A stretch of DNA of 63,454 nucleotides, filler included, from Phoronis australis (taxonomy: Eukaryota; Animalia; Phoronida), in NCBI GenBank assembly GCA_002633005.1. It is 7 parts of 7 records of this genome, joined end to end, with 100 filler letters (N's around TTAATTAATTAA, not from the genome) between each part and the next. Parts side by side here need not be neighbours in the genome. Positions count along the whole stretch, not along the records: positions 50,353 to 58,063 come from NMRA01001988.1; 6 more parts are not named here. The stretch is one strand, 5' to 3'. Made by a program: the position numbers and the translations under genes. Shown here one piece after another: positions 11,301 to 59,939 of this stretch (position 1 is its first letter; every line of letters begins with the position of its first letter). The notes beneath the pieces are model-generated. The model saw only the letters and a program-made list of their open reading frames with translations, did no database searches and had not been told where the DNA came from.

Positions 11301-11664
11301 TGATCGGATTTTTGTATCTGAATCCTCTGTACTCGTATGTTTTGAAAACTTTGGTGTGACAGCCTCTCGTCTTGCTCCAATTACGTTTTTTTTCAACGCC
11401 TTCCTCATTAGCATCTTTGCTTCTTTCGCCAATATCCGCTTCTTCACCTTCTTCTTCCTCTAAACCTCGATCTTCCTCATCCGCCTCTTCGTCATCTTCT
11501 GTCCCCTCCATTCTCTCTTGCGCCATTTCCTCGCTGCGTTCATCTACTGCTTGCCATGCGTCTTCACTCGCCGCATCTAGTTGCCTGGGCTCTTCAGCGA
11601 TGGCCAAATTCGAGATGAGCGCGAAGGTTAGTAGCCCGACAATACACTGTAACAAACAAAACAT
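8333..11664 (-). CDS. Secreted cysteine-rich prepropeptide, 222 aa (signal + acidic pro-region + KKR + cystine-knot-like domain + antistasin-like domain + GK); exons 11664-11276, 9201-9044, 8454-8333
   Basis: Donors gtaagc and gtgagt, tttcag acceptors, phases 2 and 1 consistent, 669 nt open. Mature part: NWSKTRGCHTKVFKTYEYRGFRYKNPIRNVACEHENTNCRSRYYGKCQTKYVTFVTHGYCGHCGYTPWHKRNCGLVRFYARKAVGCNC-VRGACHKPKCPKYCRYGYYWYTVQSCKYCKCRRYNGGGGK*. Confidence 0.88.
9765..10510 (+). pseudogene. THAP domain + N-terminal part of Kolobok transposase (frameshifted, truncated)
   Basis: MPRCCCVPG...LHRFP...RRTWL...VCGKH is a THAP signature split over frames. It is followed by KFIVDLSKVLELFRRCQVCG...IQWECVAGH, a CxxC...CxxxH zinc motif. 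No DDE core remains. Confidence 0.8.
10500..10686 (-). pseudogene. N-terminal relic of the convergent second Kolobok gene (KolX-like)
   Basis: Acidic N-terminus with GYMFEPEY, oriented inward from the right TIR and truncated where it meets the transposase relic. Confidence 0.55.
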
Positions 11665-24067: not shown

Positions 24068-24069
24068 NC

Positions 24070-24650
24070 TGCATGCCAAGGACAACAAAGTCGCTCAATG
24101 TTGTCGCTATGAATCGCCAAAATGACAGCTCTAGCCGTGGTGTACGTGCCACTGCTTTTGCAACATCACTGGTATTTGAAGAGTATGAGCATAATCTGAC
24201 TTATGAGCTGAAGGGAATGCGTCAACATCTTGTGATTATTGCCTAAAGAATGGAAAAGTAACACCTTTTCCATCAGAGAACAACAGCAGGTGACGCAAGA
24301 AAGTGTTTGTGCCAGTAGAAAAGAAAAATTTCTGTTCTAGTAGAAGACCAAATGAAGGCTTCAAGATACAGTGCAACAACTGCGACACGTGGCACTGTTA
24401 CAGGTAAAGTACATTAAGAACACAGAATACAACAAGAGAGAAGATTATAGATTATTATTTCTCACCTCTTGGAGAAGAGCCACCTAAAAGAAAAACACAA
24501 ACTAAGATCCAAGAGCAACCTGCCAAGATGAAAGAAAATGACTGCTAGTATGATGACATCCTCCCATCAAATGCCTGGCTAAATGACATCCACATTGATG
24601 CTGTTTGACAGGTGATCAAGCAAGCACTTAACGTGCAGAGTTCCTTCAAC
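24070..24650 (+). pseudogene. Degenerate Ulp1-like cysteine-protease / PHD module (transposon-associated relic)
   Basis: RQNDSSSRGVRATAFATSL...MRQHL...KVTPFP resembles the Ulp1 Q.N..DCG..A.AFA...MR.HL...FP tail with the catalytic Cys lost. It is followed by IQCNNCDTWH (PHD-like) and AWLNDIHID. Confidence 0.5.
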
Positions 24651-24697
24651 TCCGGAATTGGTTACGTAACAATCTGCCTTATTTAGTCTAGCTTCCT

Positions 24698-31800: not shown

Positions 31801-31842
31801 CCACCATACAATGGGGCTATTCGGAAAATCTACAATAACTAG
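28943..31842 (+). pseudogene. BEL/Pao Pol (RT, RNase H, integrase), frameshifted
   Basis: SLNDCLEVGP, SSDIEEAFL, YVDN (RT); FADASKQAYG, LPRLELMGA, WSDSQI, NPADLLTRG (RNase H region); HHCC zinc finger, GVDFTG, TRAVHLE, SDNAT (integrase). Confidence 0.92.
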
Positions 31843-33305: not shown

Positions 33306-36300
33306 TGTTGTGAATGTTGGTTTGTGTGGTCTCGTCTTTCGTGTTGTCTTGTGTGTTCGTGTTCGTCCGTGGGTTTCCGTCAGTGGCCGGATGTTGTAAG
33401 TTCTAGTTTTGTCACGTGAATGGGGAATCGAGATCTGAGCTCTCTTCGTGTGGCTCTGCTGCACGCAGGACGTCTGCGTTTGTGGGTCGGCATCTCAAGC
33501 GTGTATTCAAGCTTTCATATGAGTAGAGGTAAGCTGCACGAGAACCTGTGTATCAAGTCACAACATTTGGCGTAGTTGGCTACGTGCAGTTTCCACCTTT
33601 GCACCGAGTGGCGGGTAATTCAAATTTTCGCGAATTATTTTACTCTTGTCATTCGGTACCACCCGTGTCGTAGCGGGTAGGTCACTGAACACGGGTGTTC
33701 AGCTGTTTCGTTTATTATATTCTTCATTTTTCATTTTTGTCTAGTAAATATAAGTACCATTAGTATAATTTTTATTTGGTATTGTTTTCAAGTTCAGTCT
33801 TTTCAGACCTACATTTAATTAGTGCCACACCCTTTGTGGTACCATAACATGGCGTCCAAGATTCTAATCAATTCTTGTGACGTTACAACACTGTTGGACC
33901 TTCCGGGTTATGACTACTGATGTTGCTGCTGCAGTTATGGACTTCAGAGCAATATTAGCTATTACTCCGGAGAATGTGTGCAAGANACATTTAATTAGTG
34001 CCACACCCTTTGTGGTACCATAACATGGCGTCCAAGATTCTAATCAATTTTTGTGACGCTACAACACTGTTGGGCCTTCCGGGTATGACTACTGATGTTG
34101 CTGCTGCATTTATGGACTTCAGAGCAATATTAGCTATTACTCCGGAGAATTTGTGCAAGATACATTCCAGTTGGAAGCCAACCAAGACTGTACAGAAGTC
34201 CATAGACTTTACAGTCCCATGCGGTCTGCCAGAAGATTTGGAGGAAGTAGTCAAGGTTTGTGACGAATATGGTAAGAAAACCTCATCAATACTTACCTCT
34301 AGCCCTGACTATTCATTTTCCAAGTTGGCAGCTAAACTGACTCCGTCGTCAGAGACTGGTAGTGGCGTTGCTTATGCAAAGTCTCATTCGCATACTAGCA
34401 TGTCACCTATGCCCTCTGGCTCTGGCACTCATTACCTGTCACGTCTCCCACGCAACCTAATCTTTAGTGGCAAGTTAGGTACATGGGAGGACTTTCTATG
34501 GAAGTTCAGTAATGTTGCCCGAGACAATTTTTGGTCAGGTCAAAAATGTAGAGCGGAGCTGGGCATGTGCTTGGAAGGTGATGCCTCTCGTTGGTTTTTC
34601 AACCATATTAAAGCTCATCCACACTCAAGTTTCGACCAAGTTGTGGATCATATGACCTATCGTTTTGGGGCAGATGTCGAGTGCAATGAAGTGCACCAAC
34701 TTAGGTTCCAGTCAGCCAAGCAGACTTCTGACGAGTCCTTAGAACAATGGGCTGACCGTCTTACAAGTTTATTGCTGTTGGCCTTTCCAGAGGCGAGGGA
34801 CTCTGATAAAGCTCAGGCGGTTCTTCGGTTCTGTTTAGGTCTACAGGATAGAGAGGTTGCGCAGTTGGCTATAAACAGTCGACCAAGTACACTCATGGCT
34901 GCCTTGAATGCCGCTAGGTGGTTTTCAACAACCAAAGACTTGATGGCTACTTCCAATTCACCGAAGTCAGTATCTTTTTGTAGAGAAGGGAATATGGAAG
35001 GAGATGAAGTTGCTGTTCGCCAAGTAACCAAGAAGCCAGATCTTAAGTTCATTCCTCGTAGCTCCTTAGAGTCTCGATTAGATGTTCTTGAGGGTAGGTG
35101 CAATGACTTAGATGCGTCGGTTTCATTTCTTATGACTGACAATGCTAAGCTTCATAAGAAGATGGATGAGTTAAAGTCTGACCTTTTAGAAAATCGGAGG
35201 GAAGTATCAAACAATTTTAACAAGTTGTTTGCAATGTTACAGACACAGTCGCCGAAGCGACCTTCTCCATCTTCACCAAGAGTTTCACCGAGTTCCTCTC
35301 AGGGAAGATCTTCTAATCCTCCTCCCAGGTGTTTCAAGTGTGGAAAGCTGGGTCATTATCAGTCGGCTTGTTGGAATTCTGTTTCAGCTCGTCGAATGAA
35401 CTTTGACCTCCCTGACAGTAAGAAATTAGTTGGCCTGTTAGGTTTCTTGAAAAAATCGGTTCAGAAATTCATGAAACGTACTAGTTCAACTGAGGCTTTC
35501 CTTTCCAAGACAGCTGAGTCATCTACTCAGACTGCTGGTGAGTTCTCTGTACCTTCAACTGAAGATGATAGAACTGTATCTAATCCAGTAGATAGTATTG
35601 AAGTTTCAGACCCATCAGTTGATAAGATTGCATATGACTCATTGATTACTCAAGATGTTGCAGTTACTGTTTCACAGAATGTCCCACTAACTCCAGGGGG
35701 GCTGTCTCAGCCTGATTTCATACGAGATGTGGCAGTGAGTAGGAACGTCTGTGTCTCTCCTGCAGCGTCAATTGGTGAGTCCGTTCCAGAGACCATAAAG
35801 ATTAAGAAGAGTGCACGTGCATTTCTTCCCAAAGTAGACAAATGTGTTGGAACTAGGCAAGTGATTACGAATCCTGACTCCAACCCTACACTGGCTACTC
35901 AGTCACTTTCTCCATGTGACCTTGACGAGACAGATTTCGGTCTGTCCGGCATTTTTGCTTCAGATGGTGCAGATAATGAAAAGTTTGATCTGAAACCTGA
36001 TGGCTGTTTTATTTATAACAATACAACATCTCCGAATGTTTTAAATATTTCAGCTAAACAGTCCGCAGATCCTGATTTTTCTTTCATTATTAATCGTGAG
36101 GTCACGCAACCAGCAGACCTCATGTTCTGTCCACCATTTGTTAATTTTCTGTAGTAGCTTACTGCGCTACCTTGCTGTTGCTTGTTGTTTTGTGCATTAT
36201 ATGTTTTGTGTTCATTACTTGTTCATATGGTCCAAATGTTAATATTTTTTTTTTAAAAATATATAGTACAGTAAATTCTTCTTGTTACAAGTTTAATTTT

Positions 36301-38009: not shown

Positions 38010-39071
38010 TCTCCTGCAGCGTCAATTGGTGAGTCCGTTCCAGAGACCATAAAGATTAAGAAGAGTGCACTTGCATTTCTTCCCATAGTAGACAAATGTG
38101 TTGGAACTAGGCAAGTGATTACGAATCCTGACTCCAACCCTACACTGGCTACTCAGTCACTTTCTCCATGTGACCTTGACGAGACAGATTTCAGTCTGTC
38201 CGGCATTTTTGCTTCAGATGGTGCAGATAATGAAAAGTTTGATCTGAAACCTGATGGCTGTTTTATTTATAACAATACATCATCTCCGAATGTTTTAAAT
38301 ATTTCAGCTAAACAGTCCGCAGATCCTGATTTTTCTTTCATTATTAATCGTGAGGTCACGCAACCAGCAGACCTCATGTTCTGTCCACCATTTGTTAATA
38401 GTAGCTTACTGTGCTACCTTGCTGTTGCTTGTTGTTTTGTGCACTACATGTTCTGTGTTCATTACTTGTTCATATGGTCCAAATGTGAATAGTTTTTTTT
38501 TTAAATATATAGTACAGTAAATTCTTCTTGTCACAAGTTTAATTATTTTTTTGACCATATGTACCTTGTAACTAGTATTTTTCAAGTTTTCAAGTATCCC
38601 CAGTCACGTACTTTTGTGAAGTATTTAGTTTTTTTATTGTAAATCCGGCCACATAGGTTTTAGTTACTCTAGTATTTTTCGTAGTATAGTTCTTATTTTT
38701 CATAATGTATATTAGACATTGGTCAGTTTATTTTTTACTATTTCATTAGTTTAGGGGGGAGTAAAGGTTGGGTGGTGTTTTTTTATCATTCTTCTATTTA
38801 GGGAGGGGAGGAATGTTGTGAATGTTGGTTTGTGTGGTCTCGTCTTTCGTGTTGTCTTGTGTGTTCGTGTTCGTCCATGGGTTTCCGTCAGTGGCCGGAT
38901 GTTGTAAGTTCTAGTTTTGTCACGTGACTGGGGAATCNAAGAGCTCTCTGTTCGTGTGGCACTGCTGCACGCAGGACGTCTGCGTTTGTGGGTCTTCAAC
39001 TCAAGCGTGTATTCAAGCTTTCATATGAGTAAAGGTAAGCTGCACGAGAACCTGTGTATCGAGTCACAACA
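38010..39071 (+). mobile_element. Second copy of the 3' part of the gag-only LTR element (3' LTR 38814-39071)
   Basis: Near-identical to 35755-36826 including PPT and LTR; begins at a single N. Confidence 0.9.
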
Positions 39072-42000
39072 AAAGTCAAAAGTTGACTTAGTGATGAAAT
39101 TAAAACAATACAAAAAGGGCAATCGATGTTTTCACAAGCCCAAAGGTAGATTTAGGGAACTATTTTGTGTGGAGTACCGTGGGACTACTGCCCCGCCTCA
39201 CTAGCTGGTGTCGAAACACAGATGACCAAGTTTGGTCCTGCACAGAAACCTTATAGACCTATAATACTGCTCGAAACAGACTACAAACAGCTGTATCTCA
39301 CCGAACATTTGGCACGTGTTTTAAGATTAAGTGCACGCTAGCTCAGTATCAACTGAATGTTCGGTGCCATGTGTCATTTGTGCTAGTAAAACTCAGTAAG
39401 CTGCGGGCAACTTCCCACAACTCTTGCACTTTTTCTCATGATCTCTGACTAGTTAATCACGCGGGCTGCGGTAACCGGCGGGCTCCGCCGTGAAGTGTAC
39501 GGCGTGAATTAGGCTGCTAAGTAGGTAACATATGTATGGAATTCGGTTACAGGTTGAGCTCTTGCTTCGGCTTACTGAACACAGTTGTTTTGATGTTCAT
39601 TTTGAGCAAACTCCGATAAAGCCGCGAAATCTTTATTTGTTCACTCGCAGTCCCGGCGCCAGGAAAAATGTTGAAATTTTATGGTCTGCTTTAAGTCGCC
39701 TTCATAGCATCATAGTAAACCGGCGTTTTGTTTAATCTTGATTTTTGTCTAACATTTTTTCCTCAAGCACTCAGGCCTAGGCCTACACTGAGCTTACACC
39801 CTAGACGCATACACCTAGCTGATGCGTCGCCAAAAACTAACCTGGGTAAAAAAATGCCCCTGCATGGTTACTGAACTGTGCAACACAAGTGGATGACCAG
39901 TGTGTGACCGATTTGTCACAAGTCGTTTTCGGCTCTGACATTACATACTAATTAACTGAATCTGCCTTAATTTGAGAAAAAACGACTTAACTCAGTTCCA
40001 GGTTGATTTTTGGAAAACGTAGGCCAGTAAACCACAACTCTGGGATCAATTTACAAAGGCAAGAACCAACTATATGCTTCTTCAGGTCTCAGTTACTTGA
40101 AACATGAGTTGAAAGACTCGAAATAGACAAACTTTATTGCTCAGCCCCAGGCTCATTTGCAATAAGGTTACACTTGTTTCCTACTGAGTACGTTTTTACC
40201 GTATGTAGGCCTAAACATGAATTAGGCACATGCCTCCTTCACATCCGTATTATTAAAAATTTTAGTGTTTCAAAAAAATGCTCAATGATATTAAGTATGG
40301 TCTCTTTGGTTTTGCTCCAACGTTTCACATATGTTCGATAGGTGCAGCTTCGCATACCAGCGAGCTAGGCGCACGGGGGTAAGTACACGCAGCTATTGTC
40401 GGCAGACGATGCCGTTACGTGTCAGTCTTTTTGGTGAAACGGATTTTTTCGCTAGGTGATTCTATGTGGTATTGTCCAAGTACAATTAATGTACATATAG
40501 GTCGGCCGGAAGCGTCCAGAATGCTGAAGCGGTTTTAGAAAATCAAAACCATGAGAAGAAGAACGTCCCGCGCATAGATTTTGCCAGCTAATGGAATGAT
40601 TACCTTGAACGCGGTGTGTCTCTAGCCATGCAGCCGAAAATATAGTGGGGTAAATGGGTCGGAATGCCAGTTGCAATGGACAGATTCAGTTTGCTCCGGC
40701 ACACGTGCGTTCTCATTGACAGCGTAGCCCTTGCATACCGTACGTATTGCCGTCCATTCGAATTGTTCCCCGGCTTTTTTACCCAAGTGATTCGCATATT
40801 GGCTCATACGCCCAAGTTTCGCATATTAGTAAGTCCTGATGTCCCCTACACAGACACATGCATTTATGATTCTCGTGCACCCGTTTTGATTACCGTTGTG
40901 CCCCCAATGGCATGTTTTACGTTTGCCTCAGTCTGTATCTTTGGAGTTCAGTCCTTGGCACGATATTTTCAAGAAATTTGGTTAATAGTTTTATATTACC
41001 GTATTGCCGTGCCTTGGTCCATGGGCTATATCCGGCAAAAAATTCTTTTTTAACGGTCTATTTACCCAAGTGATTCGCATATTAGAGCATACGCCTACTA
41101 AGTTTCGCACATAAGCGCACTGGTTCCGAACAGACGCTCACGGGTGGCTCACACGCCCAATGACGCGGCAATACTATAAGTAGTTAGTTCTTGCGAACAA
41201 CAATTCTTTTCTCTTCTGCCAAAGTCATTTTTCCTCAAAAATCCTATTCATTTCTCACGAACGGTGTTTTTATTCCCGAGTAATTACATGGACAAGAGAA
41301 CAAAATTTAATAATTCGGTAGGAACAGAATTAAATTGCCGCGACATAAGAAAAACACTACAGTTCTTCTGAAATCTCATGTTTGGCATGAAGAGAGATTT
41401 TATCACTGTAATCTTGTCACGCGAAGTGAGTTACCCTTTGGACCAATTGATTACAAAAGCGTATATTCTAAAACAATTTACCACCGAAACATTGTCGAAC
41501 GGCCTTCCAAATAAATGATTTTCAGCAAAACCGGATATATCCCACACCTATGTGTGCTATAAAGTACAGTATTTCTTTCCAAAACGCGATTTAGTACACC
41601 AGTATCATTCAGTTTTCAAATTTGACGGATATCTCATTTTGCAACGAAACTCTAACGAATCTCAGTAATGCAGATACCACTAAAGTGGGTATGCGGGGGC
41701 ATTTCGTTGAAGCGGCTCAGTATAAACCCGCTATTGTCACAAAAACAGTCTTTTGACTTGGTGCACTTACCGTTATGAAATTAGTCTCAAATTGTTCCTT
41801 TGTCAAATTCGAAATGATTCCATGAATTTTATAGAAAGAACTGGCTGTTCGTTAGTGCTTGAAACCAAGCTCTCGAAGCTGGTTTGTCACGATGTGCCAT
41901 TTAATGCGCCGGAACATGGCGTCAAGGAAAAACGAGCAGTCAGTTCTTACTTGCCACTGAACTCAGAAATAACTTCTCGTCTGAGTAGAGACCAGAACGA

Positions 42001-44471
42001 GACCAATGATTTCGTAACAGAAAGTTCGCTTCTAGGACAGAACGTGGGTTAAAGCCGCTTTAATTTAAATTCAACTGTTTCCAATACATCAAGATCAGAT
42101 CGCTGATGTAAATTTTTAAAAAGCAGCATCGGAGCAATGTCTTTTTCATGTTTGGTCTTAGGCCGCCTGAATATTTGTGGAATTCGCCCTAAAGATCAAG
42201 CGAACCGTGCATCGTGCCACCAGAGGCATCTTCTGTCATTCATAAAGCGTTATGATTTCCGCTCCGAGTGAATAAATTGGCAGTGGGTCACCCTGGCGTC
42301 AATATGTGCGAACAGGGATATGTTTAGAAGTGAATTATGTTAAAATAACACGAAAAGACCAGCACCTATATTCAACAGGCAGACCCGTTCTATTAAACAA
42401 TGACCACTGAGAAGGGTTATTAAGAACTCACGTTCGCCCAGAGGAGTATCCACACTACACAAGAGCGCGTTGACACTGGCTTATCAATTCATATTAATTT
42501 GTATTTGTTCCACGACTCTTAAACATGTTCAAATACAACAAACAAAAGACAGGCAAGAACTCTGACAATGGGTATTCGGCAGTTTCCGTGGGTGATGCAG
42601 AAACGAAGTCGAACCCAAAGCGCTCACAATCAGACAAATGTCTCCTAAGGTAGCAGACGAAAACAAAATTTACTGCTAAACATTTAACACTTCCCGTAAT
42701 AACACAATAAATCAATTATTAGACCCACAATAATTTTCATAACAACAGCAGCTTGATAATTGCACATCTGACGTCATCAAATCATGTATCTGTCATGACT
42801 ACACCATGTCGTAACTACAGGGTTAGCCACCAAAAACGAACCAACAAAATTCCGTATAAAATTATTAACCCCTTATTCATTTGACAAGATCAAAAAAATC
42901 TCAAAGCACACTGGCTGATACGATCAAAATTGGACCTGATGTAGGATTAATGAGCATTTTTATGGGTTTGTTTTTGGGTCACCCTGTAGTTCACAAAGAA
43001 TAACTTGATTAAAGTTTCAAATAACCAGTCACAAGCAAACTTCGATTTAGAGAGATGACACTTGCTATATCCCTAAATATTTCATATTTTTCATTTTACT
43101 TTTTCATGTCCCAGATGTGCCAGCTTCCTCCCAAAGTCCACTATCAATATATTAAGGCATAAATAGTTAGCTTATTGATTACATTTGTACACTAATTTCA
43201 ACAGGGACAATAAGCTTGTCAGTACTGACGTTCTGTTACATAAGCGGCTTAATCTTGTTCATTACTCAGATTAGATGATTCTAGGCTTCAGTAGAACTGA
43301 CAGATCCAGAGCTAGTCATACTTCAAAACAGGCCCAAGTTGCTAGTCACTGCGGGTCAGTTCTAGCCACCAAGTCAGTGTGGCTGTGAGAGGAGATATAG
43401 GTGTATTTTTTAAAATATAATTCAATAAAAGGAAAAGAACACTATGACATTGGTTTGGAAGGCCAAAAACTCCTGTGAAAAATTCATGTTTTTTGTCACC
43501 AAAATATGATCTTTAGCGACTTTATTCACTCAAAGAATTTGTAAGTAATGCAATCACTCGATAATTAAGGGTAAGAACATGGGCAGTGCACCATAGGGGG
43601 CTCAGGAGGGCGGGCTATAGTTCCCCTTTTTTCAGTGCTGCACCGCCCATGAGTAATACTTATTAAGTACATTTAATCCCTCTATAGAATACACTCTGGA
43701 ACTTTTAAAACCAAATCAACCCATAAACTACAAGCATAGAAGCAATGTCCAAGCACTAGAATCCAATACACTAAACATAAGTTTTTCATTAAGTTGTGCA
43801 CGTCGGTTACCAGCTGTTCTAATGTGCGTCCATTACCAGCTCTTCTAATGAACCTGTGACCATAATTGATTGATGACTGCTTCTCCAGCCAGCTATTAAA
43901 TATTCGTTTTTTCAAACCTGATTTGTAGCCAGTTCTCAAAAGTTTCTGCAACAAGTGTTCTTACATGTACTTGCACAAATTTCTAAACGACACATCACGT
44001 GATACAGGCCCCAAGAATGCAGATTGTTACTCATAGCAAACTTTGGAAGATTAAAGGGCTTCAAAAACTTGTTAGAATATACTGACACCTTAAGTCACAA
44101 ACAGCGTACAGATACATGTACAAGCAAAAACAAAACTAGACAAGTTTTACACAAATGTCACTTAATTGAATGAATACTTTCTTAATTATTCACTCTGTTT
44201 CTATGCTGCGAAAAATTATTCCATAATGACATTCGAGCTCATTTGGCCGGGTTTCAGTGTAAACTATTAAAACTGTCTATAGACAACATAACATGAATTT
44301 TTAACGAATACATCAAGTTAACATCAAAAAACAGCATTATAAGAAAATAATGCAGGATCAAAAGAACACGTTACATCTCGATATTCAGGATCAGTTCACA
44401 GACATACATACATGTACACCTATACAATGCTTATAGAACCGCTTCAATAAAGCATGAAAGGACACATGGCA

Positions 44472-47400
44472 TCAACCTTCATTTTTAGCCATTTGGTCTG
44501 TCGACTGTATAAGTGAGATGGCCTCTTCCCAAGCCCCTAAGCACTGGAAATATAAAGCATCATCACCAATTAAAAATACGCAAAATATTACAAATGTTGG
44601 AAGGTGCACGCTATCACATCCTAAGCAAACAAAAGGGTACCTAGTCAAAGCCTAGTTTCACTGCAAGACGAGATATTTACCAAATAGAATAAATTTGAAA
44701 TTCAAAATAATGTAACTAGTCCATATCGCATTTTTGGAGCATGCATACCAGAGGGATATATCAGGTTTTGCAGACAATTAACTGAAGTGGACTTAATGAT
44801 CAATAATGTTGTGGTGAATCAGAACTTTCAAATTTTAATGGTAGATATCTCTATAAAATTTGGTACAGAGGAGAAAAAATTAGACTATGTGGGTTCTTGA
44901 ATTTTCAAAATTGGTCAATTAATATCAAGTAAACAATTTTGTAAAATAATAAACCAAGCCATGAGCTATTCATTGGAAAGTAGTTTCCAGCACAGTGTAT
45001 AATCTACAGTAATTGACTGCATCACTAACTCACAATAGGAGCTGCACCTGAAAGAACGTGGAAAAAACTGGTCCTAGTCTAGCTGAATCTTTAAAGGAAA
45101 TATTCTCAACATGGAAAATAAAATTTCACTGTTGTCCATATTGTGTCCTAATTCGGCAAAATTTTATTGTAACAGGCTTAATCAAACATCAGATAATACT
45201 TTGAAATGACCAAAGCACAAGACCCAATGGGAGACTTTCAGAAAGTAATGGAGGCTGATCAAGAGGGAATGGTGACTTTTATCGCCACCTGGCTGAATAA
45301 GAAAGAAGCTGGGTGGAACATTTTGACTTCGTGAAAAGACCTTTTATATTGTACACGATTAGAAGTGATGCATTTTAAACAAAGTTAAATTGCCTCGGCC
45401 ATTAGTATCCAGTCCCACGTGATCAGTCGCCACGTTGCTGTAAAGTCTCCCATTAACATTAGCCAGCTCTTACTCAACACTGCCTGAGAACGGATTGCCT
45501 CAGCTTTATTCCAGGCAAACTTGAATTGAGAAACCTGTCAGCATTCTGTAATACATTCTAGTTTTAGTAAGAAACAAATTAAGACAAATTTCACTAATTA
45601 AGTCCAAATCATACAAAGACAATTTTTCCCAAAAGGTGGACCCATAACAGCTTTAAGTCATGTGAGCACAAACAACAATTACCTTTTGATAATAATTAAC
45701 TTGCTTGTCAGCGATATTGGTGAACATTTCTTTCATGTCCCTCTTCTTGTTGGCATGCCACCGTTCCATGTCAGCCTTTAAATCTGCATTTGCTACAACA
45801 GTTCGGTCATTAAATACCTCGACTTGTTTTGTAAGCTGGAAAGGAAAAGAACCACAATGTCAGGAGTAACTTTCTCTTGACCAATGACCTTCTCAGTCAA
45901 AAGTGGTCAAATCCAATAACTTATTTTTTGTATCTAGCTACTCCTAATGTTTGATATTTTTTCTCTTATTCAAAAACACAAAATTATAACTTGGCAAGAA
46001 ATACAGGGAAGCATTTAGCTGACTTAAAAGTAAATAATCCCTTTCAATGGTCTAGCTAAAGGCTTGATATCTCGAAGCCATGAGCATTTTGCAAGTCTAG
46101 ATCTTTCCAATATTTCACAATAAGCAGCCAATCTTGCTAGTCAAATAAACTTGTACACATTCGAAGAGTGGTACAAAATGGAACATTAAACACTCACACC
46201 ATCCCATATAACATATCCCATTACTTGTTTGATAACAGATGTCCACGCTAGTATTATAATTAATTAACTAATAGGTGTTATTGCAGTTATTTTACCTCTT
46301 CAATTAAATGGTCAAGTTTTTCTTCTTTTTGCTGTCTGACCTCCTCTGGATTTTTTCCCATAAAAGACCCCAGAGAGTACGACTGGTCAGAGGTTTTCAG
46401 CTTGAAATTAACAGCAACAATGTAAGACACGAGATTGCATGAGATAACAAGTAAATAACTGCAAGACATGAGATTAAACGAGATAACCAGCAGCAGGATA
46501 AGGCATGACATTAAACCTGATAACCAGTAAATAACTGAGAAGTCAGAACACAAACCTAGTGAACAAAAACCGATGCCGAAAAAACAATTTAGCTTGTTTC
46601 TACAATTTGCATTTCACTTGGTTCAGACACAAACTAAGAATTTAATATTTTAATGGTATTTATAAAAAGAATATTGAAATATTCAAAAGTAAAATGCCCC
46701 CATCAGGAGGAATAAGGCTATCTTAGAAATAGTCCATAATTATCAACATGTTTTTCAAAAGCATACAAAACATTCTTAATTGGTTGTTGTGTATCAGACT
46801 AGTGGTGTGATAAGAATTTGACAGACAGCATTAGGCAAAAAACGAAAACAAATTATAGCATAATTTTCAAGGTTACACACGCTTAGTTGCATTGCGTGGA
46901 AGCTGCAGCCCCTACAGACTGTGGGGCAGGGGCATGATTATACTTAATATAGGGGGCAGCTGCATGTGCATCATTATACTTAATATAGGGGGCAATTTGC
47001 ATTCCTCCATTACTATGACTACAATGTCATTGTTTGAGCTCCGGGGGTCGGTGTCCTCTGGACCCACCCCCTGGATCTGCATCAGCTGAATGCTAGTCTT
47101 CAACTCACTTGTTCTTTCTCTTCCTTTCGTCTGTTCAGTTCCTCTAACGTTATTTCGTACTCCATTTGAATAGCATCCCTCCGTCGTAGAACAGCCTGAA
47201 AATTTGGAAACAACATTCATCGTCTTCTGCAGAACACATTTACCCAACTGATGGTGGGATTGAATTCCTAGAGTGACGTCATAACTTGTGTGGTGAATAG
47301 AACTTTACATAAACACGAGTACACAACTGAATAGTATGTAAAAATTAATCTGACAAATTCTCAGCATTCCTTACGCTTAACTTAGGTCTAGAAATCTTGC

Positions 47401-49779
47401 CCTATATATAGAAACTGGCTGCTTTATACAAACTCCTGCAGATGAAAGGTTATGTTGTTACTCTCTGTTCTTTAGTTTGTGTGTTACTATTGTCACAGTA
47501 GTGTTATTGTGACTCCTTATGGTTAAACTCTATGGATTTGACGGTACTGTGTTGCCTTGTTCAGAGCTCTTGTGTCGTTATGGAAATTAGTATGTAAGGT
47601 GTGCTCAGTGTTTGTCCTATCTAAGTTCAATTTGACACTGGACAGCATACTGAGGGTTTCTTCAATAAACCATTCTGACCATATCGTATAACAGACTTTG
47701 GCTAACATGGCCGTAACAATCTGATGTTGTTATGTTGCGACTCAAACTCAATTGAAGACAAGCTGCAATTTATGTCTGATTGTTCTTTATTATTCACTTA
47801 TTAGTCAGAACAAATTTATTTCTTTATAACATATGTCTCCACGAACCTAACTTTTAAGACTAATTAAAAGCAGGGCAGAAGAATGAACTGACAAATGAAT
47901 ATAATTTCAACATTTCCCTAAACAATTAGCCAAATTTCTTCAGTGGTATATGAGCATAGGACGGTGTAGTTATAATCAAAGAAATTAAATCTGTTCAACT
48001 GGACCCTTGCCTTCGGAGTATACCGCTCTCTGGTTAAATGTAGTTTTATTTATATTTGATTTGTTAATTCTCATTTCTTTCAATCGGAAAGCTGGATAGA
48101 GACTGTTATTAGAATAATAACATTTTGTTGCCATTAGCAAACAGTGTACCAGTCACAAAAATAAATAAACACTCCTCTACTACTGTGCTACTGAAGGTAC
48201 ATAATAAAGCAACTGAGAATAGTGAGAAAGAAGATGTTAACTAATCCGCAACATTACTCCATTTGAAAACCCACTGCACACAGAATGTAGATCAACAGTA
48301 GATAGGCTAACTGCAATCTAGTATGTAATTCCAAGTGTTTTGTAGCTTTAAAGGAGTTTGAGAGCCACACACAGGCAATTTTGGTTGAACAGAACTCATC
48401 ATGCAAAGTTTGTCATGAATCATGATAAATTCTATGATTTCTTATCACTGAGCAACGATAAATGAGCAAAGTTTTACGTTTTCCACGAATGGTGCTATGA
48501 ATGATGATCACTTATCATCAGCCTGATGTGAATTCATATCAAACAAAATAGGTGTGTAATTTTGAAAATAAACGCTGCTCACCATTTACAGACTTTGAAA
48601 TAAAGGGACAAACTGTGGTTTACCTTAATGGCGTCTGTATACAACATGTACTCCTTCAGAGGAATGCTGAACTCTGTTTCAGTTGCACACACCTGTAATT
48701 AGTAAACTATGAAACTAACAAAAAAATCTAATAAATGAGTTTCATTTACAAGAGAAAGTGCAGTTTGGAGACAGACCTAAAATTCATTATCTATGGGCAG
48801 TTAGCCCTCTGTTCTACTGAAAAGATCAAATCAGATTCAATGAATAATTGGAACGACAATTTCGAAATTGTATATTTGAAGGAACAACCTATTGGAAGCT
48901 GACTTTTGACACTAAAAAAGTGAATATTAGTGAGTTGGGATTCATACTTCTGATGGTAAACCAATTATTACATTACAACATTCCGTTCTCCTTCAGCTAA
49001 CACTGGGATATTTTGTTTTACTTCAGGTAAAAATTCCTCCCCAGTAAACAATGTGACTCCTTTGATCCTGAATGTAACATTATCATTTATTAACAAAAAA
49101 ATCATGTTTGGCTTCAACTCCAGATGACAGCTATTTCCAAATCAATGCTAAATCCAGATATCAATCTAATCCAGTTATAATGTTCCTCCAGTCTCTTGTT
49201 TAGCATCATGACTCGCCGGACAATAATCTTCTTTAAGTTCAAAGGGTTACTAAAATTAAGTGGGGTGACTTTGTCAACAGGTATCAGAATACCGAAACTT
49301 AGTTAATCTATTTTGGCTAATTTTCATAGTATTTCTGAAGGTAAAAAGGACTCCAACCTATTTTGTAAGAGCAATTCCATTACAGAAGCCAAACAGTTAA
49401 ACAGAATTTTTGGCAGAATCACATACAAATCTACTGACAAAGTACAAAACAAGCTGAGTTTCTAAGGGACTGTTTTCTCCTAAAACTTACATTATGTCAT
49501 TTCATTTCCACTCCTGAAAAAGTAAGTTCAAAATCATTGTCAGCTGAAAAGCGCATTCACCCTCCAACAGAGTAGAATTATTAGAATTCTCCAGGGTCAT
49601 ACCAACATCCAAAACTCAAGCAAGTTTGCCCTCTGGCAGTGTACATACCGCTTCCTTTAGCGCCTCCGTACATTTGTCAGATGTTGCAGCGACCGCAGTT
49701 AGTGCTTGGCTCAATGTATCTTCATAGTTCGACCATAAAGTGAAAATGGGTGACAGCTCACGCAGTTCTTGAATGTACT
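44472..49779 (-). CDS. SNX30: Sorting nexin of the SNX7/SNX30 (SNX4-family) PX-BAR group, 5'-partial; exons 49779-49649, 48692-48624, 47195-47109, 46400-46296, 45835-45683, 44543-44472
   Basis: All introns GT-AG, phase 0. Translation ...LSPIFTLWS...PLKEYMLYTDAIK-AVLRRRDAIQMEYE...NADLKADMERWHANKKRDMKEMFTNIADKQVNYYQK-CLGAWEEAI...* matches the SNX30/SNX7 BAR C-terminus. Confidence 0.92.
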
Positions 49780-50186
49780 CTACAATGATAACAAAATACA
49801 ACAGACTATAAATAGCACAAACCACATTAAAGGCAAAGTTGTATTTATAGCCACCATTTAATATAGAAGAGTTAAATGCGAATGAGTAAATGTCTGCATG
49901 ATGTAGAAAACTCGACATGAGCTTTTACTAACAGGAAACTGAAGATAATTTGAACAAATCATGTTCGCTTCGGAACTTGAAAGTCTGTGTAAATAAGATT
50001 TTAAAAGTCCCTTAGGGGTGGTATATTTAGTCAAACATGGGTGTTGAACAGTAAAAATTGGGAAAATTGATCTTGAATTGCTAATACGCAATTGTGGTGC
50101 TATAAATCATAAGAGTTAATTGGTCTTCATAAACGCCATCTGTTGGTCACATCATGTGACCTAAAGTTATGTCAGAAAAGATTTCT

Positions 50187-50252
50187 GTCCTGACCGGGGT
50201 TCAAACCTGTGACTTTCTAAGGTGCAAAGTCTCTCATCCACTGAGCTATCGG
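50187..50252 (-). mobile_element. tRNA-derived SINE head / tRNA pseudogene fragment
   Basis: The minus strand has A-box tagctcagtgg and B-box ggtttgaacccc at tRNA spacing, but the anticodon arm is degenerate. It runs into the contig end. Confidence 0.6.
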
Positions 50253-51282
50253 NNNNNNNNNNNNNNNNNNNNNNNNNNNNNNNNNNNNNNNNNNNNTTAA
50301 TTAATTAANNNNNNNNNNNNNNNNNNNNNNNNNNNNNNNNNNNNNNNNNNNNTCTTGCGACTCTTCGTACAACAATTAAGACAGTATACGAACTGGAAAC
50401 CGCCATTATTTGCCAAAATTCGTTGATTCCTAGTTGGGTATGAGCTTAATTTTTTAAATTTCCGCTATGAGCCCCTCTACTTTTAAAAATGATTTTTGAT
50501 TTTGGCTACGTACCGCTATAGAGCTGGTCTCAGCTAGTTCCTTGCTCAGATTAAAAGTGGTTTTTGGGGTTTTGAGCCAGGTCTCGAACAGCAGTGACTT
50601 TTCAGTTCTTCCAAAGACAACATAAATGAACAAACTATGTACATGTACGAGCGGTCATGCTGCGAGGACGAATAAGTCAGGAACCGAGCGGTGATTATGA
50701 CTAAACCCTAGTATAGGGTTAACACGGCCAAATGGAATTATGTAGGGTTGAGAAACAAGTTAAGTATGTCCAGCTTTCCTCACATCTCCATGTATTCCAC
50801 ATCTCGATGAGTCGAGATTTCCATCAAGGATGACGCAACATTCAACAAACGTCTGGTATCAATGTACCGAAATACTTGCAGTTGACGTATTCAACCATTT
50901 TCGATCGATGCATCGAGCGAAAACGTTACCAAACAGCGCAAATTTGAAGGACATGATGTTGTTACTACAGGCTTCTGTACACACCAGTAATATAACTTAG
51001 TACGTCAAAACAGAATCGTACTAATAAGTGTTTTGTTTAATAAAAATAGGACATAGTCGCCGTTTCCAGGCGCGGACGACATGGTTCTTGCTTGGCGGAT
51101 TGGTGTAGGCGAAATAAAAATATTCCAGTGCCAGTGTCCGCAAATATCAGGAAACCACAGCACATATACTTTTACCAGTTTGACTAACCTCAACGTAAAT
51201 TCCATGCAATTATGTGAAGTGTCTATTTTTACGCTTTTACGAACACGGCGTTGAACTCTGTGTATTTTTTGTTGTTCTAAAG

Positions 51283-51503
51283 GTAATTATCATCTATGCG
51301 CCAGTTGTTACGTTTTTACACTTCTGAACACGCAGCGTCGCGTTTGCAATAACGTGCCCATTACTGTCGACGTCGTACGACCGGTCTTACGACTTTCGAT
51401 AAAACGGGCTTCAATATCCCAACACTGGATGGTTCACGTCATCGAAGAATGTTGCAAATGGGGGTGCATGGGCGTGGTGAAACGGCTCTGTCGAGGCCAA
51501 TGA
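51283..51503 (+). CDS. Divergent insulin/relaxin-family peptide, terminal exon (B chain, C peptide, KR, A chain)
   Basis: Acceptor ttttttgttgttctaaag, phase 1, then NYHLCASCYVFTLLNTQRRVC-NNVPITVDVVRPVLRLSIKR-ASISQHWMVHVIEECCKWGCMGVVKRLCRGQ*. HLCxSxxVxxL..VC and IEECCxxxC...C are insulin B- and A-chain signatures. Confidence 0.7.
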
Positions 51504-52612
51504 TTACATGAGAGCCAACATGTAGATTTGCACATAAGACGTGACGCAGTTTCATGAACATTTCCAATTTTATCTTCACTGAGAACGACTCGAATCGTTT
51601 AATCAAAATACATGTCTGTCACAAACTCGCCACTCTTTTAATAAAACTCCGGCCCAGATAATTACGAATTCCGATTACTAAATACAGCACACCAGTGCAA
51701 TTGTAAATTGACAGTGACTTCACTTCGGGAGGGTACTCATCTTTATTAGAAAATCCACCTATTTAGAGAGTGGGTATTACTGAAATGTAGCCTATTTGCA
51801 AGGAACTCCCATGAAAAAGGTTGCCCTTCCGTACGGTTTTGGTTACAGTAGTACTACCCTTTTGTAGGGATTACTCTACAATAACCTAACCCTCGGACTG
51901 ACGAATCTTAAACCAAGTAAGCCTAAAACAATACAAGGAGAAAAGCCATAAATACGTTAAAATGAGAACATCACTTTCAAGTAGTCAAAAATACAGACAG
52001 TAACATATTTTAACTGTATGTAGTTGGCGTGCACCCTGTGCGTTAGAGAACTTTTCGTGACCACGGTAGTGTTCCGTTGACCAAGTTTTTCAGCAAAAAA
52101 AACCAAGATCTCGCACGACCTCGCAGAAATCATGCAAATGAAAGACTAATGTTTAGTGAATATGTTCGGGTGACACTGCGCAGTTAGACTGTAGCCGCGC
52201 GTACTTTGTACTGCCTAGAAAATAAATTAGTGGGGTACGCCAGGTTTGGTGGCTGTTTTGAGATATGCATTGCGAGTAGGTTTAATGAATGTGGTTTACC
52301 TAAGAAAAGTCCGCCATTTCAGCTGTGGATTTCATTAACTTGCAAAATAGCAGTCTCCTACAGAAGTGTTGCATTGCACTCAGTCCAATGACTGTGGAAT
52401 TTGTTGCGATTTCAGGTAGCTCGCCTTGAACAAACTGGAATTGCAAAAAAATATTGAATGGCAGGTCTATTGGACCACCTCTGAGGAATCTGTAGTAAAT
52501 TTGCAATCACAATCACAATGAGTGTTCTCTCGTGTCGAGCATTGGCAGGGAAGTGGTAGTTAGCGCTTAAAAGTGTTAATTGTGCATTTCTGTCAACCTT
52601 TCCGTCAATCTG

Positions 52613-53484
52613 GGCCCGGTCTCTAATCTTTGTACTCGAAACGAACTCGAAACTATTTTTGGCAATTGCTCTACTCCTTTTGTGCGAACTTAAGATAATT
52701 GGTTATCTGACTGTGCTCGAATACATTATAGTTTATGCATAGGAGTTTCTAGTTCAAGTTTGCCCTTGAAGACCCTTATATTCGTGCTACAAACTCGAGT
52801 AAAAACTCGAAATTTCGAGTTCAAACTCGAACTTATTGCTTTAATATTGGGTTTACAAACTGTGAACTAAGGGCAATAAATTATCTACGTAAGTTATTGT
52901 GTACTCGAGCATAGAATAATAGACACTTATCTTGANNNNNNNNNNNNNNNNNNNNNNNNNNNNNNNNNNNNNNNNNNNNNNNNNNNNNNNNNNNNNNNNN
53001 NNNNNNNNNNNNNNNNNNNNNNNNNNNNNNNNNNNNNNNNNNNNNNNNNNNNNNNNNNNNNNNNNNNNNNNNNNNNNNNNNNNNNNNNNNNNNNNNNNNN
53101 NNNNNNNNNNNNNNNNNNNNNNNNTATTTTTGGCAATTTCTCTGCTCCTTTTGTGCGAACTTAAGATAATTGGTTATCAGACTGTGCTCGAATACATTAT
53201 AGTTTATGCATAGGAGTTTCTAGTTCAAGTTTGCCCTTGAAGACCCTTATATTCGTGCTACAAACTCGAGTAAAAACTCGAAATTTCGAGTTCAAACTCG
53301 AACTTATTGCTTTAATATTGGGTTTACAAACTGTGAACTAAGGGCAATAAATTATCTACGTAAGTTATTGTGTACTCGAGCATAGAATAATAGACACTTA
53401 TCTTGATTTCGTCCAAAAGTATATTAGAAAATGCCAAACCTAATTTCGAGTTCCATTTCGAGTAAAAAGATTGGAGACCGAGCC
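52613..53484. mobile_element. Non-autonomous PIF/Harbinger-type element spanning a sequence gap
   Basis: TIRs ggcccggtctctaatcttt..actcgaaa / tttcgagt..aaagattggagaccgagcc with a CTG duplication at 52610-52612 and 53485-53487. Diverged family members at about 245-610 and 6245-6620. Confidence 0.75.
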
Positions 53485-56400
53485 CTGGTGTCCTTTTTAG
53501 TGGCAGTGAAAGGGTCAAAATATGAGTCAGGAGAAAGTTTCTATGGTCGTATGAAGCGTTTCCGAAGTAAAATGGCTCCAGTGATGTTTACGCAGCCACG
53601 CAAAACCTATTGAAAGCTGCACAGTGCCACCTACAGGTGGGGATGTTGAATTATGGGATAGAATTGTTTTTCTCCTTAACTGAAAGCTAGTGTATTGCTC
53701 CTATGGAACCATTGCTTGCGGAAAGTGGTCGTGAAAAGTTACCTTTCTGAGCGGCACGTCTCGTATACTTCCTTAATGGAAGTGCCCCCCGAGCTTCACT
53801 TGGTGAAATTTGTTCATCTCCTGAGTATTGAGACCCGCTGTCAGTTACTGATTCACTGATTAGTTTCAAAACAGATACCTATAATTACGTGCCTGACACA
53901 CGACTCGGCGTGCCAGGCGCCCTGACCAGATGCCTACACAGTTTCCTCGTTGGCAGCATTTATGAAACCTTTTGTGTTCATTCCTAGTCAGACTTGTTTG
54001 AGGTAAGCAGTTGATATAAAACGTGGATCTTACGCAAAGGAGGCATGCAAGAATATCTAGTGTCATCGTCCTGTGAGCACGTGCGAGGGTCACGTGAAGT
54101 TACTTCGAAACAGTTACGCCAAAATTGTGTCAAGCTCATGCTCACGATTAGAGTAAAAGACATTTCCAGTTAGTCAGAAATCAATTGACTGTATCAAATG
54201 GACAGTCACAAAAAGTCAGTCAATTGACTTATCGATTTACACCTTTGATAACACGTCATACCATGTCACTACCTCTTTCATGCTAATAAAACATCGATAA
54301 AGACTTTTTCTCGTTTAGCTAAATCATTCGTGACGATTATCCCTATTCATGAAATGTTGGTTTCGATATGGTTGGAGGCATGTATTGCATTGCAGCAAAG
54401 GTACTACATGAGAAGCGGTTTTGCAAACTGAAACAAGGTCGAGGCTTGAGGCAAATTAAAAAAAAACGAAACAAATGAAGCAGGCGGAGGGGGGCGTGAT
54501 AAGCATGTGTTTTGACCGTTCTATTCCCTGCATTAAGTAGCAGCCGGAAGGCATTAACGTCTTCCTGGTAGTACGTGGAAATGAAGATTTCAATCTTCAT
54601 TTCTCAATTCCCTAAAGATACGCTACGAGCGGATTTCACCTTTGAAATAGCATCAAATACTGCAACATCTGTTATATTGCATTTTTCAGTCAACAGATAA
54701 GAGCTTCTGAGAGTCATCTCTGCAATGTAAGTTGTCCCCGACAGTTAAACTAGGATTTCGGTAATCCACTGTGACTATTCTTCATCCCCGTCTATTCTGC
54801 GACCACCCAGAGTATAAGCACAGTCATCGGACCCGAACTCTAGACTATGTTCAATTGTCTCATAGCTATTGATTCATCTATAGTGTATTGTACCCATTGA
54901 TCTACAGAGACAAGACAAGTAATGTAATAAACGGAATATAAAGCTGGCGTGAGATTCCAAAAGGATAACGTCAGTACACCAACACAGTTCAATGTGTTGC
55001 GGGTGATTGGCGTTGAAGTGAAGTGTTCATTCAGGACAAATACCGGCTCTCTGAAAGGGACTACGACATCTAGAAAAATCGTCCAGCGTTTTTTTCGTTT
55101 TATGCGCTGTAGTTGTTCAAGTTTGGCGTCTCGGTACAAGGTGTCCCAATATAAAGGGGGTCACTGTTGATCAAAACTAGAAAACATTAATTACTGATTT
55201 TAGTTTTTGTCATCATATTTTGAGATGTTGTGGTTAGCAATGGATGTACAAAGCACTAACTATTTACACCTTAATCCAAGTCAACTTTGTGATCTATCGA
55301 ACACCAATCCGATAATTTATCATTTCCTTCCCCTGTTCAATCTATAAGTTCACCAGTATAGTCTACTTACTAGTAAGCCCTGAAAATATGGCGGCCTTCT
55401 TTCTACAGAGGTAGTTTGACTGACAGTGTTTTCCCAGGAATTCAATTTCACACAGTCGGTTGTTATAGCACAAATTGTCCTGTTTCTTTCAAGGACTTCA
55501 CTGTGTAAGAAGTAATAAGGTGTTCACAAATCATTTTTGTCATTCAGCTTCGAAAATAATTCTCAATAAATGGAGCGTCCTTAGCGCCACCTTGTGGCAA
55601 GTCATTGGATACGCCGGTAGATAGGACGGTTTTGACGCCTGGGATTAACTCGCAATGCTCTAGCCAAAGATGTCAGAATCACCTCCCGTTGACGTTTGAC
55701 CAATAAGATAGTGTGCTTTGGTCACGTGATATTATGTACGATACAATGTGAGTTGACTCCGACACGACCTAGTTAAATTTATTATATTCATGTTAATATT
55801 GACCAATAAGAGACCAGTTGATACAGCTAAATTTACGATGAATTTCGGTCTTTTTCATGTGCCGTGCGTCATTGGTTCCCTCAACTGACAGTTGTAATGT
55901 TAACAACTTTTGACTCTGCACAAACTGGCACGTGCTTCCGAACTCGTCAAGTCGCCCTACTGAATCGTCACGAGGCGATCCAAAGGGTATCAGTTCCATA
56001 CAGGCAAAGACTCCTTGATAACACGCAGGTGGGAGCAAAGATTGCTAATGACCACTATCACTTTCCATTGTCTACTGTGAGTGGAAAATAACTTAAAGCG
56101 ATGAACAAATTTCATGGATTAAAAGTTTATGCACACTACCTAACTTCAAACTCATCACATTGCAGTGTTTACTCTGTTACAAGACGGGCACGTGGTTATT
56201 TAATAAGAGTTGTGTGTTTCCTCTGCAGATCTGACGGGAAATCGAGTACGAACTACTAAGCAATGTATATAAAATGTGCCTCAAACACCATGATGTTAAT
56301 TTTTAAGCAGAAAGGCAGACCAAGCACTAGTGCGCTAGCATGTTGTCTTGGCCTTGATGACTCTCATTTCTGGGCTGATTCTGCAACGGCTGTGACTGAC

Positions 56401-58989: not shown

Positions 58990-59939
58990 CTTCTCAAATG
59001 CAATCAAAAGGCAATCTAATACTTTCAATCGCATCACATCGTGCTATACGTACCGAATTGACGTGTTTTCCACGATTTCTTGAGGGGTGATTTTGTGTTC
59101 GTGACATTGCAGAAAATGATCTTGAATGGCGCCATTTTGAAAATGCATAGATAACCGACGGGAAAGACTGCAAACCGTTTGACCAATGTTAGTAACATTG
59201 TTTGACATTTGAACGTCGGTTATCTATGCTTGAGATCTCGAATGGTCCTGGGGTTGTCCTTGTAAACCTTGTCCTTCAGATATCCCCATAAGTAAAATTC
59301 TGGGGGTTCAGATCAGGGGAATGAGGCGCCCATTCTGGATTAAGCTTACGGCTGTTGAGACGACCAGGGAACTTGCTGTCCAGCCACTCCAGACTGACAT
59401 TGGCTGTATGAGGGGTGGCCCCATCCTGATGGGGCCACTGTATATTCCTCTTCACCCTGTTTGCACCTCTTCTCCTATTTCTGACACCTAAATCTTCCCA
59501 AAACATGTGGAGGACCTCCAGGTAGAGTTCCTTGGTTAACGGAAAGATTTCTTGGGACTACATCCCACTGACTCTTGTACTCTGGCAATGTTTTCTGGAG
59601 ATCTTACAGTGAGTTTTCTGCCAACTCTGCTACGAGACGTCTCCCTCATACCATTTATTGTCCCTGCAGTCTCAAACTTCTTTACCCAGCGATAGATCTG
59701 TGGGTTATTTGTTATGATCATATTTTTGGGGAAAATGAGCGATTGCATATTTGAAGGATGTTTTCTCAGATTTTTTAACCACACAGAAAATTTTCTGCTC
59801 TTTGGTGAATGGCATTTTTGATGGGTGGCTGGGTTTCTTAACTTCTCAGTTACTTAAATCTGACACAGAAAGTCAAAATGTTAAAATATAAAAAAGTTCG
59901 AAGCATTTTAGTCGGTATCATAAATTTGTGGACACTGTA
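58990..59939 (-). mobile_element. Tc1/mariner-superfamily transposon relic (frameshifted transposase)
   Basis: MPFTKEQKIFCV start near 59815, HTH-like IYRWVKKFETAG, VRSPENIARV, then HQDGATPH...WAPHSPDLNP. One tacagtgtcc-type terminus at 59939. Confidence 0.85.

What the first reader, a model, noticed from the sequence alone, without database searches (positions are those of the whole stretch)
51283..51503. Divergent insulin-like peptide with non-canonical cysteine spacing, missed by the ORF track
Seen: B-like HLCASCYVFTLLNTQRRVC aligns to insulin HLCGSHLVEALYLVC with a 4-residue insertion and an extra Cys at the position of insulin His-B10. A short C-peptide ends in KR. The A-like chain has CC-x3-C-x7-C rather than the canonical x8 and an N-terminal extension. 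B, C and A are all on one exon. Inference: a lineage-specific insulin-family peptide with an unpaired or extra-bridging Cys, possibly with a non-hormonal role (secreted insulins are known from cone snail venoms), or a decaying paralog.
Basis: partly seen in the sequence, partly recalled or inferred. Interest (0 to 1): 0.72.

Follow-up and report, generated by a model that had tools for sequence, protein, structure and literature searches.

The report
Insulin-like frame without gene support
A 73-codon open frame in an animal genome carries an insulin-like cysteine pattern with wrong spacing in both chains, no matching transcript and no start exon, so it is likely a chance look-alike in repeated non-coding DNA, though a decayed or very divergent hormone gene is not excluded.

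Summary
The frame is there as described (51283-51503; 7 Cys, B-like C-x15-C, KR, A-like CC-x3-C-x7-C). It matches no Pfam family and no protein in two large libraries. The A-like piece alone hits relaxin-3 weakly (E 0.11). Both AlphaFold models have low confidence. Scored against a motif from lophotrochozoan insulin-like peptides it gets 24 of 56 bits; 5 of 35,060 locally shuffled windows reach that, so a scan of this size should give a few dozen such cases by chance. In three RNA runs of the same species label (35 million records) no read lies on the frame at 90% or better and none uses the 51283 acceptor; I had no positive-control gene. Eighteen reads from another locus share 38 nt (51323-51360). 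That relative has no first B-chain cysteine in this frame, and 4 of 9 reads in one run change the second one to Arg. No signal exon was found, but an assembly gap lies 1 kb upstream. Verdict: probably a chance frame in low-copy repeated DNA (0.52); decayed insulin-family relic 0.27; working divergent hormone 0.16. Nothing supports a venom role.

The parts
51260..51282 (+). T-rich tract and AG: putative phase-1 splice acceptor, use not shown
   Evidence: Sequence; 13 of 17 pyrimidines, A at -3, 115 of 3555 AGs score as well; no joint in RNA reads
51283..51503 (+). 73-codon open frame with 7 Cys, ending in TGA; G+C 0.49 against 0.41 and 0.38 in the flanks, CpG o/e 1.5
51291..51347 (+). B-like segment: Cys 51297, extra Cys 51306, Cys 51345; C-x15-C; internal RR
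   Evidence: scores 5.9 of 20.3 bits on the B motif, less than a chance segment reaching back into the supposed intron (7.5 bits)
51348..51407 (+). C-like linker ending in KR (51402-51407); no intron in it
51408..51500 (+). A-like segment: 14-residue extension, CC-x3-C-x7-C, internal KR, Leu before the last Cys
   Evidence: 17.1 of 34.7 bits on the A motif; best PDB hit relaxin-3 A chain, 15.8 bits, E 0.11, query cut by hand
51323..51360 (+). 38-nt piece shared at under 90% identity with a transcript of another locus in the same species label
   Evidence: 9 reads in X1, 9 in X2, 0 in X3, all first mate on minus; G>A at 51332 and 51342 (both CpG), T>C at 51345 in 4 of 9 X2 reads
51204..51254 (+). 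In-frame ATG upstream, cut off from the frame by TGA 51252-51254; not a convincing signal peptide
51640..51645 (+). AATAAA 137 nt behind the stop, use not shown
50253..50352 (.). Assembly gap of unknown true size, 930 nt upstream; could hide a signal exon
44490..49780 (-). Context: six exons of a sorting nexin-30-like gene (BAR half); its PX half is not in the window

Best explanation
The stretch is a 73-codon open frame with seven cysteines in an insulin-like order that likely encodes nothing: a chance look-alike inside a G+C-rich piece of low-copy repeated DNA. Shown: the frame, the wrong spacings, the lack of matching reads in three runs, and a homologous 38-nt piece in a transcript from another locus that lacks the cysteine frame. 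Inferred: both copies are fragments of an old dispersed element or small duplication; the other copy sits in a methylated transcribed region (both known fixed differences are CpG to CpA) while this one kept its CpGs; the 'acceptor' is one of many T-rich AGs and is not used.
For: (1) No family or relative: Pfam 0 at E up to 10; PDB sequences 0 for the whole frame; 0 hits among 5.8 billion proteins in two length classes; 1 hit among 1.84 billion, a tandem-repeat artefact. (2) Departs from the family at most fixed points. All 13 named phoronid and brachiopod peptides I could read in the supplement of PMC8557429 (counted by eye, only part of the list seen) have C-x11-C, CC-x3-C-x8-C and Tyr or His before the last Cys. 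The frame has x15 or x12, x7 and Leu, an odd Cys, and dibasic pairs inside both chains. (3) No intron in the C domain, which PMC8286064 calls characteristic of all the ambulacrarian insulin genes it examined. (4) 0 of 81 laid reads were 90% alike or better on 50620-52300, out of 35.1 million records in three RNA runs; no joint. (5) The one homologue: in this frame its 30 upstream letters give no Cys, and T>C at 51345 turns the second B-like Cys codon to Arg in 4 of 9 reads of X2. (6) Chance supplies such cases: 24.0 of 56 bits, reached by 5 of 35,060 shuffles, a few dozen expected in about 250,000 windows; the same window holds a second chance-grade site at 17.7 bits with canonical x8 spacing, and the best 'B chain' found lies partly in the supposed intron. 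(7) No signal or B-chain exon found upstream on the plus strand.
Against: The score is in the top 0.02% of shuffled windows. The A-like piece's best hit among 177,635 PDB sequences is an insulin-family chain. Removing four residues gives a B-like x11 segment with Leu-Cys, Thr-Leu-x-Asn and Val-Cys as in phoronid and brachiopod peptides (by eye). Both length changes are in frame. The stop follows 3 codons after the last Cys, a phase-1 AG lies just in front and AATAAA behind. G+C is raised (10 of 470 stretches in 38000-63454 reach it) and falls at the stop. Gonadulins have variable spacing and often low, patchy expression (PMC7357564). Only about 18-19% of each run was read, tissues are unknown, and no expressed single-copy gene of the window was laid as a control. 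No transposon family was identified for the stretch, and only one related locus was seen.
Confidence: 0.52

Rival explanations
1. Decayed relic of an insulin/relaxin-family gene: a B-C-A exon that took a 12-nt insertion in the B helix, lost one codon in the A chain and drifted at key residues; no longer expressed. The related transcript would hold a second, more decayed copy.
For: Motif score and order of parts; relaxin-3 A chain as best hit; exon-like G+C, acceptor, stop and AATAAA; in-frame ATG at 51204 cut off by one stop, as an intronless relic might show; no reads.
Against: A neutral relic would be expected to take frameshifts or stops, yet both length changes are in frame. The homologue shares the 'inserted' letters in register (8 of 13 identical next to the core; the whole 30-nt flank is not above shuffles, 2027 of 5000) and has no Cys at the B7 position. 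No parent gene was found, but no whole genome was held.
Confidence: 0.27
2. Working, very divergent insulin-family hormone of gonadulin/relaxin type: a signal exon in or beyond the gap splices to 51283; the precursor is cut at KR; three disulfides would form with one spare cysteine; it would act through a leucine-rich-repeat GPCR in a tissue or stage not sampled.
For: Open frame with six core cysteines in order and both indels in frame; AlphaFold gives helix-break-helix in the A-like part (H47-60, H62-69, pLDDT 63-67); gonadulins vary in spacing (louse gonadulin CC-x7-C-x8-C) and a seven-cysteine decapod relaxin is described (PMC7357564).
Against: No read in three runs; no signal exon found; dibasic pairs inside both chains; conserved Gly, Leu and aromatic positions not met; no homologue in any library; homologous transcript lacks the cysteines.
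Confidence: 0.16
3. The exon is the last exon of an ordinary insulin-like gene: 51283 is the family's phase-1 intron in the C domain, the 'B chain' is really C-peptide, and the true signal-plus-B exon is lost in the gap.
For: The acceptor is phase 1, the phase of the family's conserved intron (PMC8286064); an unconstrained C-peptide would explain the Cys-to-Arg change in the relative.
Against: Three cysteines in a C-peptide would be unusual (own knowledge); the A chain is still x7; no CG-x9..11-C exon with a signal peptide upstream in the window; no reads.
Confidence: 0.05

Closest known systems
Human relaxin-3 A chain (PDB 2fhw_A)
   Same: CC-KWG-C core identical, Leu-Cys end; N-terminal extension in front of CC
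   Different: One residue shorter between the last two cysteines; 15.8 bits, E 0.11 on a hand-cut 26-residue query; no match of the B-like part to any insulin-family chain
Phoronid and brachiopod insulin-like peptides (supplement of PMC8557429)
   Same: Order B-C-A, Leu-Cys and Val-Cys ends of B, Glu-Cys-Cys in A, dibasic site before A
   Different: 13 of 13 read have C-x11-C and x8, Gly/Ser/Asn after the first Cys, Leu/Val at B15 and Tyr/His at A19; all have a signal peptide and an even number of core cysteines
Arthropod gonadulins / Drosophila Ilp8 class (PMC7357564)
   Same: Variable cysteine spacing, hard to detect by similarity, IEECC in the louse peptide
   Different: Those are shown transcripts with signal peptides; their variation in the louse example lies between CC and the third Cys, with x8 kept
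Cone-snail venom insulins
   Same: Only the general idea of a modified insulin
   Different: No sequence, expression or context evidence links this frame to venom

Membership tests
Insulin/IGF/relaxin superfamily | Six core cysteines in the order C..C (B) and CC..C..C (A) | tested here: met
   Cys 6 or 9, 22, 57, 58, 62, 70; one extra Cys
Insulin/IGF/relaxin superfamily | B chain C-x11-C with Gly after the first Cys | tested here: not met
   x15 or x12; Ala or Tyr after the Cys; feature stated in PMC8698791
Insulin/IGF/relaxin superfamily | A chain with eight residues between the last two cysteines and an aromatic or His residue before the last | tested here: not met
   x7, Leu; 13 of 13 comparison peptides have x8 and Tyr/His
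Insulin/IGF/relaxin superfamily | Match to the Pfam insulin model | tested here: not met
   0 families at E up to 10 for the whole frame and for each part; HMMER's filters drop weak gapped matches
Insulin/IGF/relaxin superfamily | Insulin fold with three disulfides | tested here: inconclusive
   Single-sequence models, pLDDT 58 and 57, pTM 0.41; disulfide geometry not available
Insulin/IGF/relaxin superfamily | Signal peptide | tested here: inconclusive
   No candidate exon found in 38940-51283; in-frame ATG 51204 blocked by a stop; gap at 50253-50352
Insulin/IGF/relaxin superfamily | Phase-1 intron in the C domain | tested here: not met
   No AG between 51336 and 51443 and an unbroken frame; feature from PMC8286064, stated there for ambulacrarians; intronless exceptions exist in insects (recalled)
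Insulin/IGF/relaxin superfamily | Dibasic convertase site between C and A | tested here: met
   KR at 41-42; further RR and KR inside the chains
Insulin/IGF/relaxin superfamily | Spliced transcript | tested here: inconclusive
   0 reads at 90% or better and no joint in three runs; no control gene, tissues unknown
Gonadulin / relaxin class | Gonad or neuroendocrine expression and action through an LGR-type receptor | not testable with these tools
   No tissue labels, no genome to search for the receptor
Transposon-derived fragment | Many dispersed copies, or a transposon protein domain or terminal repeat | tested here: inconclusive
   One related locus in RNA; no second copy in the window; no Pfam domain in twelve read-through frames

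The most novel reading that the evidence does not exclude
A working seven-cysteine insulin-family hormone of a lophotrochozoan animal, with a B helix four residues longer and an A chain one residue shorter than any peptide compared here, all on one exon: a spiralian counterpart of the fast-evolving gonadulins that profile searches miss.
Probability: 0.16. Interest if true: 0.55.

Novelty: not a real feature. Interest (0 to 1): 0.2.

Why it matters
If it is a chance frame, it is a useful calibration: insulin-like cysteine patterns with relaxed spacing turn up about once in 7,000 such windows and need transcript or orthologue evidence. If it is a working gene, it would show that the insulin fold tolerates length changes in both core helices and point to a class of spiralian hormones hidden from Pfam.

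Tried and rejected
No RNA holder listed for 51200-51800; four runs came by species label only, and contig run X4 gave nothing on the frame. Fold searches of the low-confidence models listed no insulin-family chain: PDB Foldseek 34 matches, none at E 0.001; VIA wide, best Z 6.3, generic helical bundles; viral library, none at E 0.001; second model, best Z 4.5. This is not exclusion. Folding the B-like and A-like pieces as two chains gave no answer (score 0.03). ESM Atlas: no usable hit for the whole frame or the A-like part. P0001 (E 3.6e-8) is a 22-fold tandem repeat matching a few residues: rejected. L001 is the antisense strand of a helicase-like viral frame, 32 of 63 nt alike: rejected. Metagenome and viral DNA scans: 0 matches; 245 pattern hits, none confirmed. 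An apparent tandem copy of the B-like part at 51225-51251 is not above background (124 of 1555 adjacent pairs; no tandem array). A decayed LINE or WD40 reading in other frames was considered by eye and got no Pfam support. Rfam: two sub-threshold hits, both outside the frame. A signal-like stretch at 47443 carries a stop and lies inside the SNX30-like gene: rejected. Literature string searches for the x7 pattern found nothing, but the canonical pattern found nothing either, so they say nothing about novelty. Motif searches in three supplements found no matching peptide. dN/dS could not be computed: no orthologue.

Full report
Observation. The frame is present as described. After an AG at 51281-51282 a phase-1 reading gives 73 codons up to TGA 51501-51503. 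Cysteines sit at residues 6, 9, 22, 57, 58, 62 and 70; KR is at 41-42, with further dibasic pairs at 19-20 and 67-68 inside the supposed chains. The stop-to-stop frame starts at 51255; the nearest in-frame ATG upstream (51204) is cut off by TGA 51252. The acceptor tract is good but common: 115 of 3555 plus-strand AGs match or beat it, and position -3 is A.

Setting. The window is animal DNA rich in mobile elements. A sorting nexin-30-like gene lies on the minus strand at 44490-49780; one exon is 67% identical to three mollusc proteins, which suggests, but does not prove, a lophotrochozoan. Its PX half is not in the window. A gap at 50253-50352 separates it from the candidate, and CpG o/e rises across the gap from 0.2-0.7 to about 0.8-1.5. 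Whether the candidate lies in an intron of that gene is unknown. No whole genome was held.

Similarity. Pfam gave no family for the whole frame, its parts or twelve read-through frames. PDB sequences gave none for the whole frame and two unrelated weak hits for the B-like part. The A-like part, cut by hand to 26 residues, had the relaxin-3 A chain as best hit, 15.8 bits, E 0.11. The large protein libraries gave no relative. Two single-sequence AlphaFold models had pLDDT 58 and 57 and cannot decide the fold.

Comparison with the family. PMC8698791 (passages read) states the C-x11-C and x8 framework and the conserved Gly. In the supplement of PMC8557429 (passages; 11 of 223 text places plus motif hits) all 13 named peptides I could read keep x11, x3, x8 and Tyr or His before the last Cys. 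PMC8286064 (passages) finds a phase-1 intron in the C domain of all ambulacrarian insulin genes. The candidate fails these points. In its favour, removing four residues gives a B-like x11 segment much like the phoronid and brachiopod ones, and PMC7357564 (passages and one supplement row) shows that gonadulins vary in spacing and that a seven-cysteine relaxin exists. PMC6425005 (passages) added nothing specific. Other papers were seen only as search listings. bioRxiv supplements were not available and may hold further divergent peptides.

Chance. Patterns drawn after seeing the candidate occurred in 14 of 1500 simulated windows when loose and 0 of 1500 when an acidic residue before CC was required (similar). 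A residue-class motif read off the 13 comparison peptides, with one indel allowed per chain, gave the exon 24.0 of about 56 bits (A 17.1, B 5.9). 5 of 35,060 locally shuffled windows reached 24; 237 reached the A score alone. A better-scoring 'B chain' lies partly in the supposed intron, and a second site near 21138 scores 17.7 with canonical x8, which only 48 of 35,060 shuffles reach, so real DNA probably beats the null. At about 1.4 in 10,000 per window, a scan of some 250,000 windows should yield a few dozen cases if they were all of this kind (my extrapolation). The motif was chosen by me after seeing the candidate, though its classes come from the comparison set.

RNA. Three raw RNA runs with the same species label were read in part (18-19%, 35.1 million records). 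On 50620-52300, 81 reads were laid and none was 90% alike or better; there was no joint. I had no expressed single-copy control and do not know the tissues, so this is moderate evidence only. Eighteen reads (9 in X1, 9 in X2, none in X3) fit 51323-51360 at under 90% and continue on both sides in one consistent other sequence, so they come from another locus. All have the first mate on minus, so the RNA is likely the plus strand. The two listed fixed differences are CpG to CpA; two more per read are not listed. In the insulin-like frame the relative's upstream 30 letters contain no Cys codon, and T>C at 51345 changes the second B-like Cys to Arg in 4 of 9 X2 reads. Homology probably runs on downstream with small gaps (93 of 5000 shuffles, 25 of 4868 random places score as well) but not clearly upstream (2027 of 5000). 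Which frame, if any, the relative uses cannot be told from about 100 letters.

Points for a gene. G+C is 0.49 against 0.41 and 0.38 in the flanks and drops at the stop; 10 of 470 nearby stretches reach it. The stop lies three codons behind the last Cys and AATAAA 137 nt further on. Both length changes are in frame, which a neutral relic would seldom show.

Verdict. I put a chance frame in low-copy repeated DNA first (0.52), a decayed insulin-family relic second (0.27), a working divergent hormone third (0.16) and a last-exon reading at 0.05. These are judgements from the counts above, not computed posteriors. It should not be filed as an insulin-family member: B spacing, A spacing, profile match and C-domain intron were tested and not met. 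The full related transcript and a genome-wide copy count would settle most of it.

Noticed in passing
window 11272-11694, minus strand: Single-exon frame that looks like a secreted precursor: hydrophobic start, long acidic pro-region, KKR, then a 36-residue basic peptide with two cysteines. It suggests a hairpin defence peptide or neuropeptide; no Pfam match above cut-off and no PDB hit. Better gene evidence by anatomy than the finding itself.
   Followed up: partly
window 44490-49780, minus strand: Six exons of a sorting nexin-30-like gene covering residues about 269-460 of mollusc proteins; the PX half is absent from the window.
   Followed up: yes
window 20958-21227, plus strand: A second open frame with KR followed by CC-x3-C-x8-C (17.7 bits on my motif), without a convincing B part; taken as chance.
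   Followed up: partly
window 23140-31840 and 33995-36151: BEL/Pao-type retrotransposon pieces (DUF1759, reverse transcriptase, integrase zinc finger), partly duplicated, and a gag-like frame with a zinc knuckle.
   Followed up: no
window 52610-53485: Small element with inverted ends; its left end draws hundreds of reads from many other loci on both strands. A 282-nt duplicate flanks the gap at 52936-53124, probably an assembly overlap.
   Followed up: partly
window 59279-59853, minus strand: Helix-turn-helix and transposase-like frames, likely a decayed Tc1/mariner element (family name recalled).
   Followed up: no
window 52181-52227: Another short piece shared at under 90% with a transcript of a different locus (7, 3-4 and 51 reads in X1, X2, X3), showing that such shared pieces are common here.
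   Followed up: no
window 47443-47500, plus strand: Signal-peptide-like stretch behind a TATA-like box, ended by a stop after 19 codons, inside the sorting nexin gene; probably chance.
   Followed up: partly
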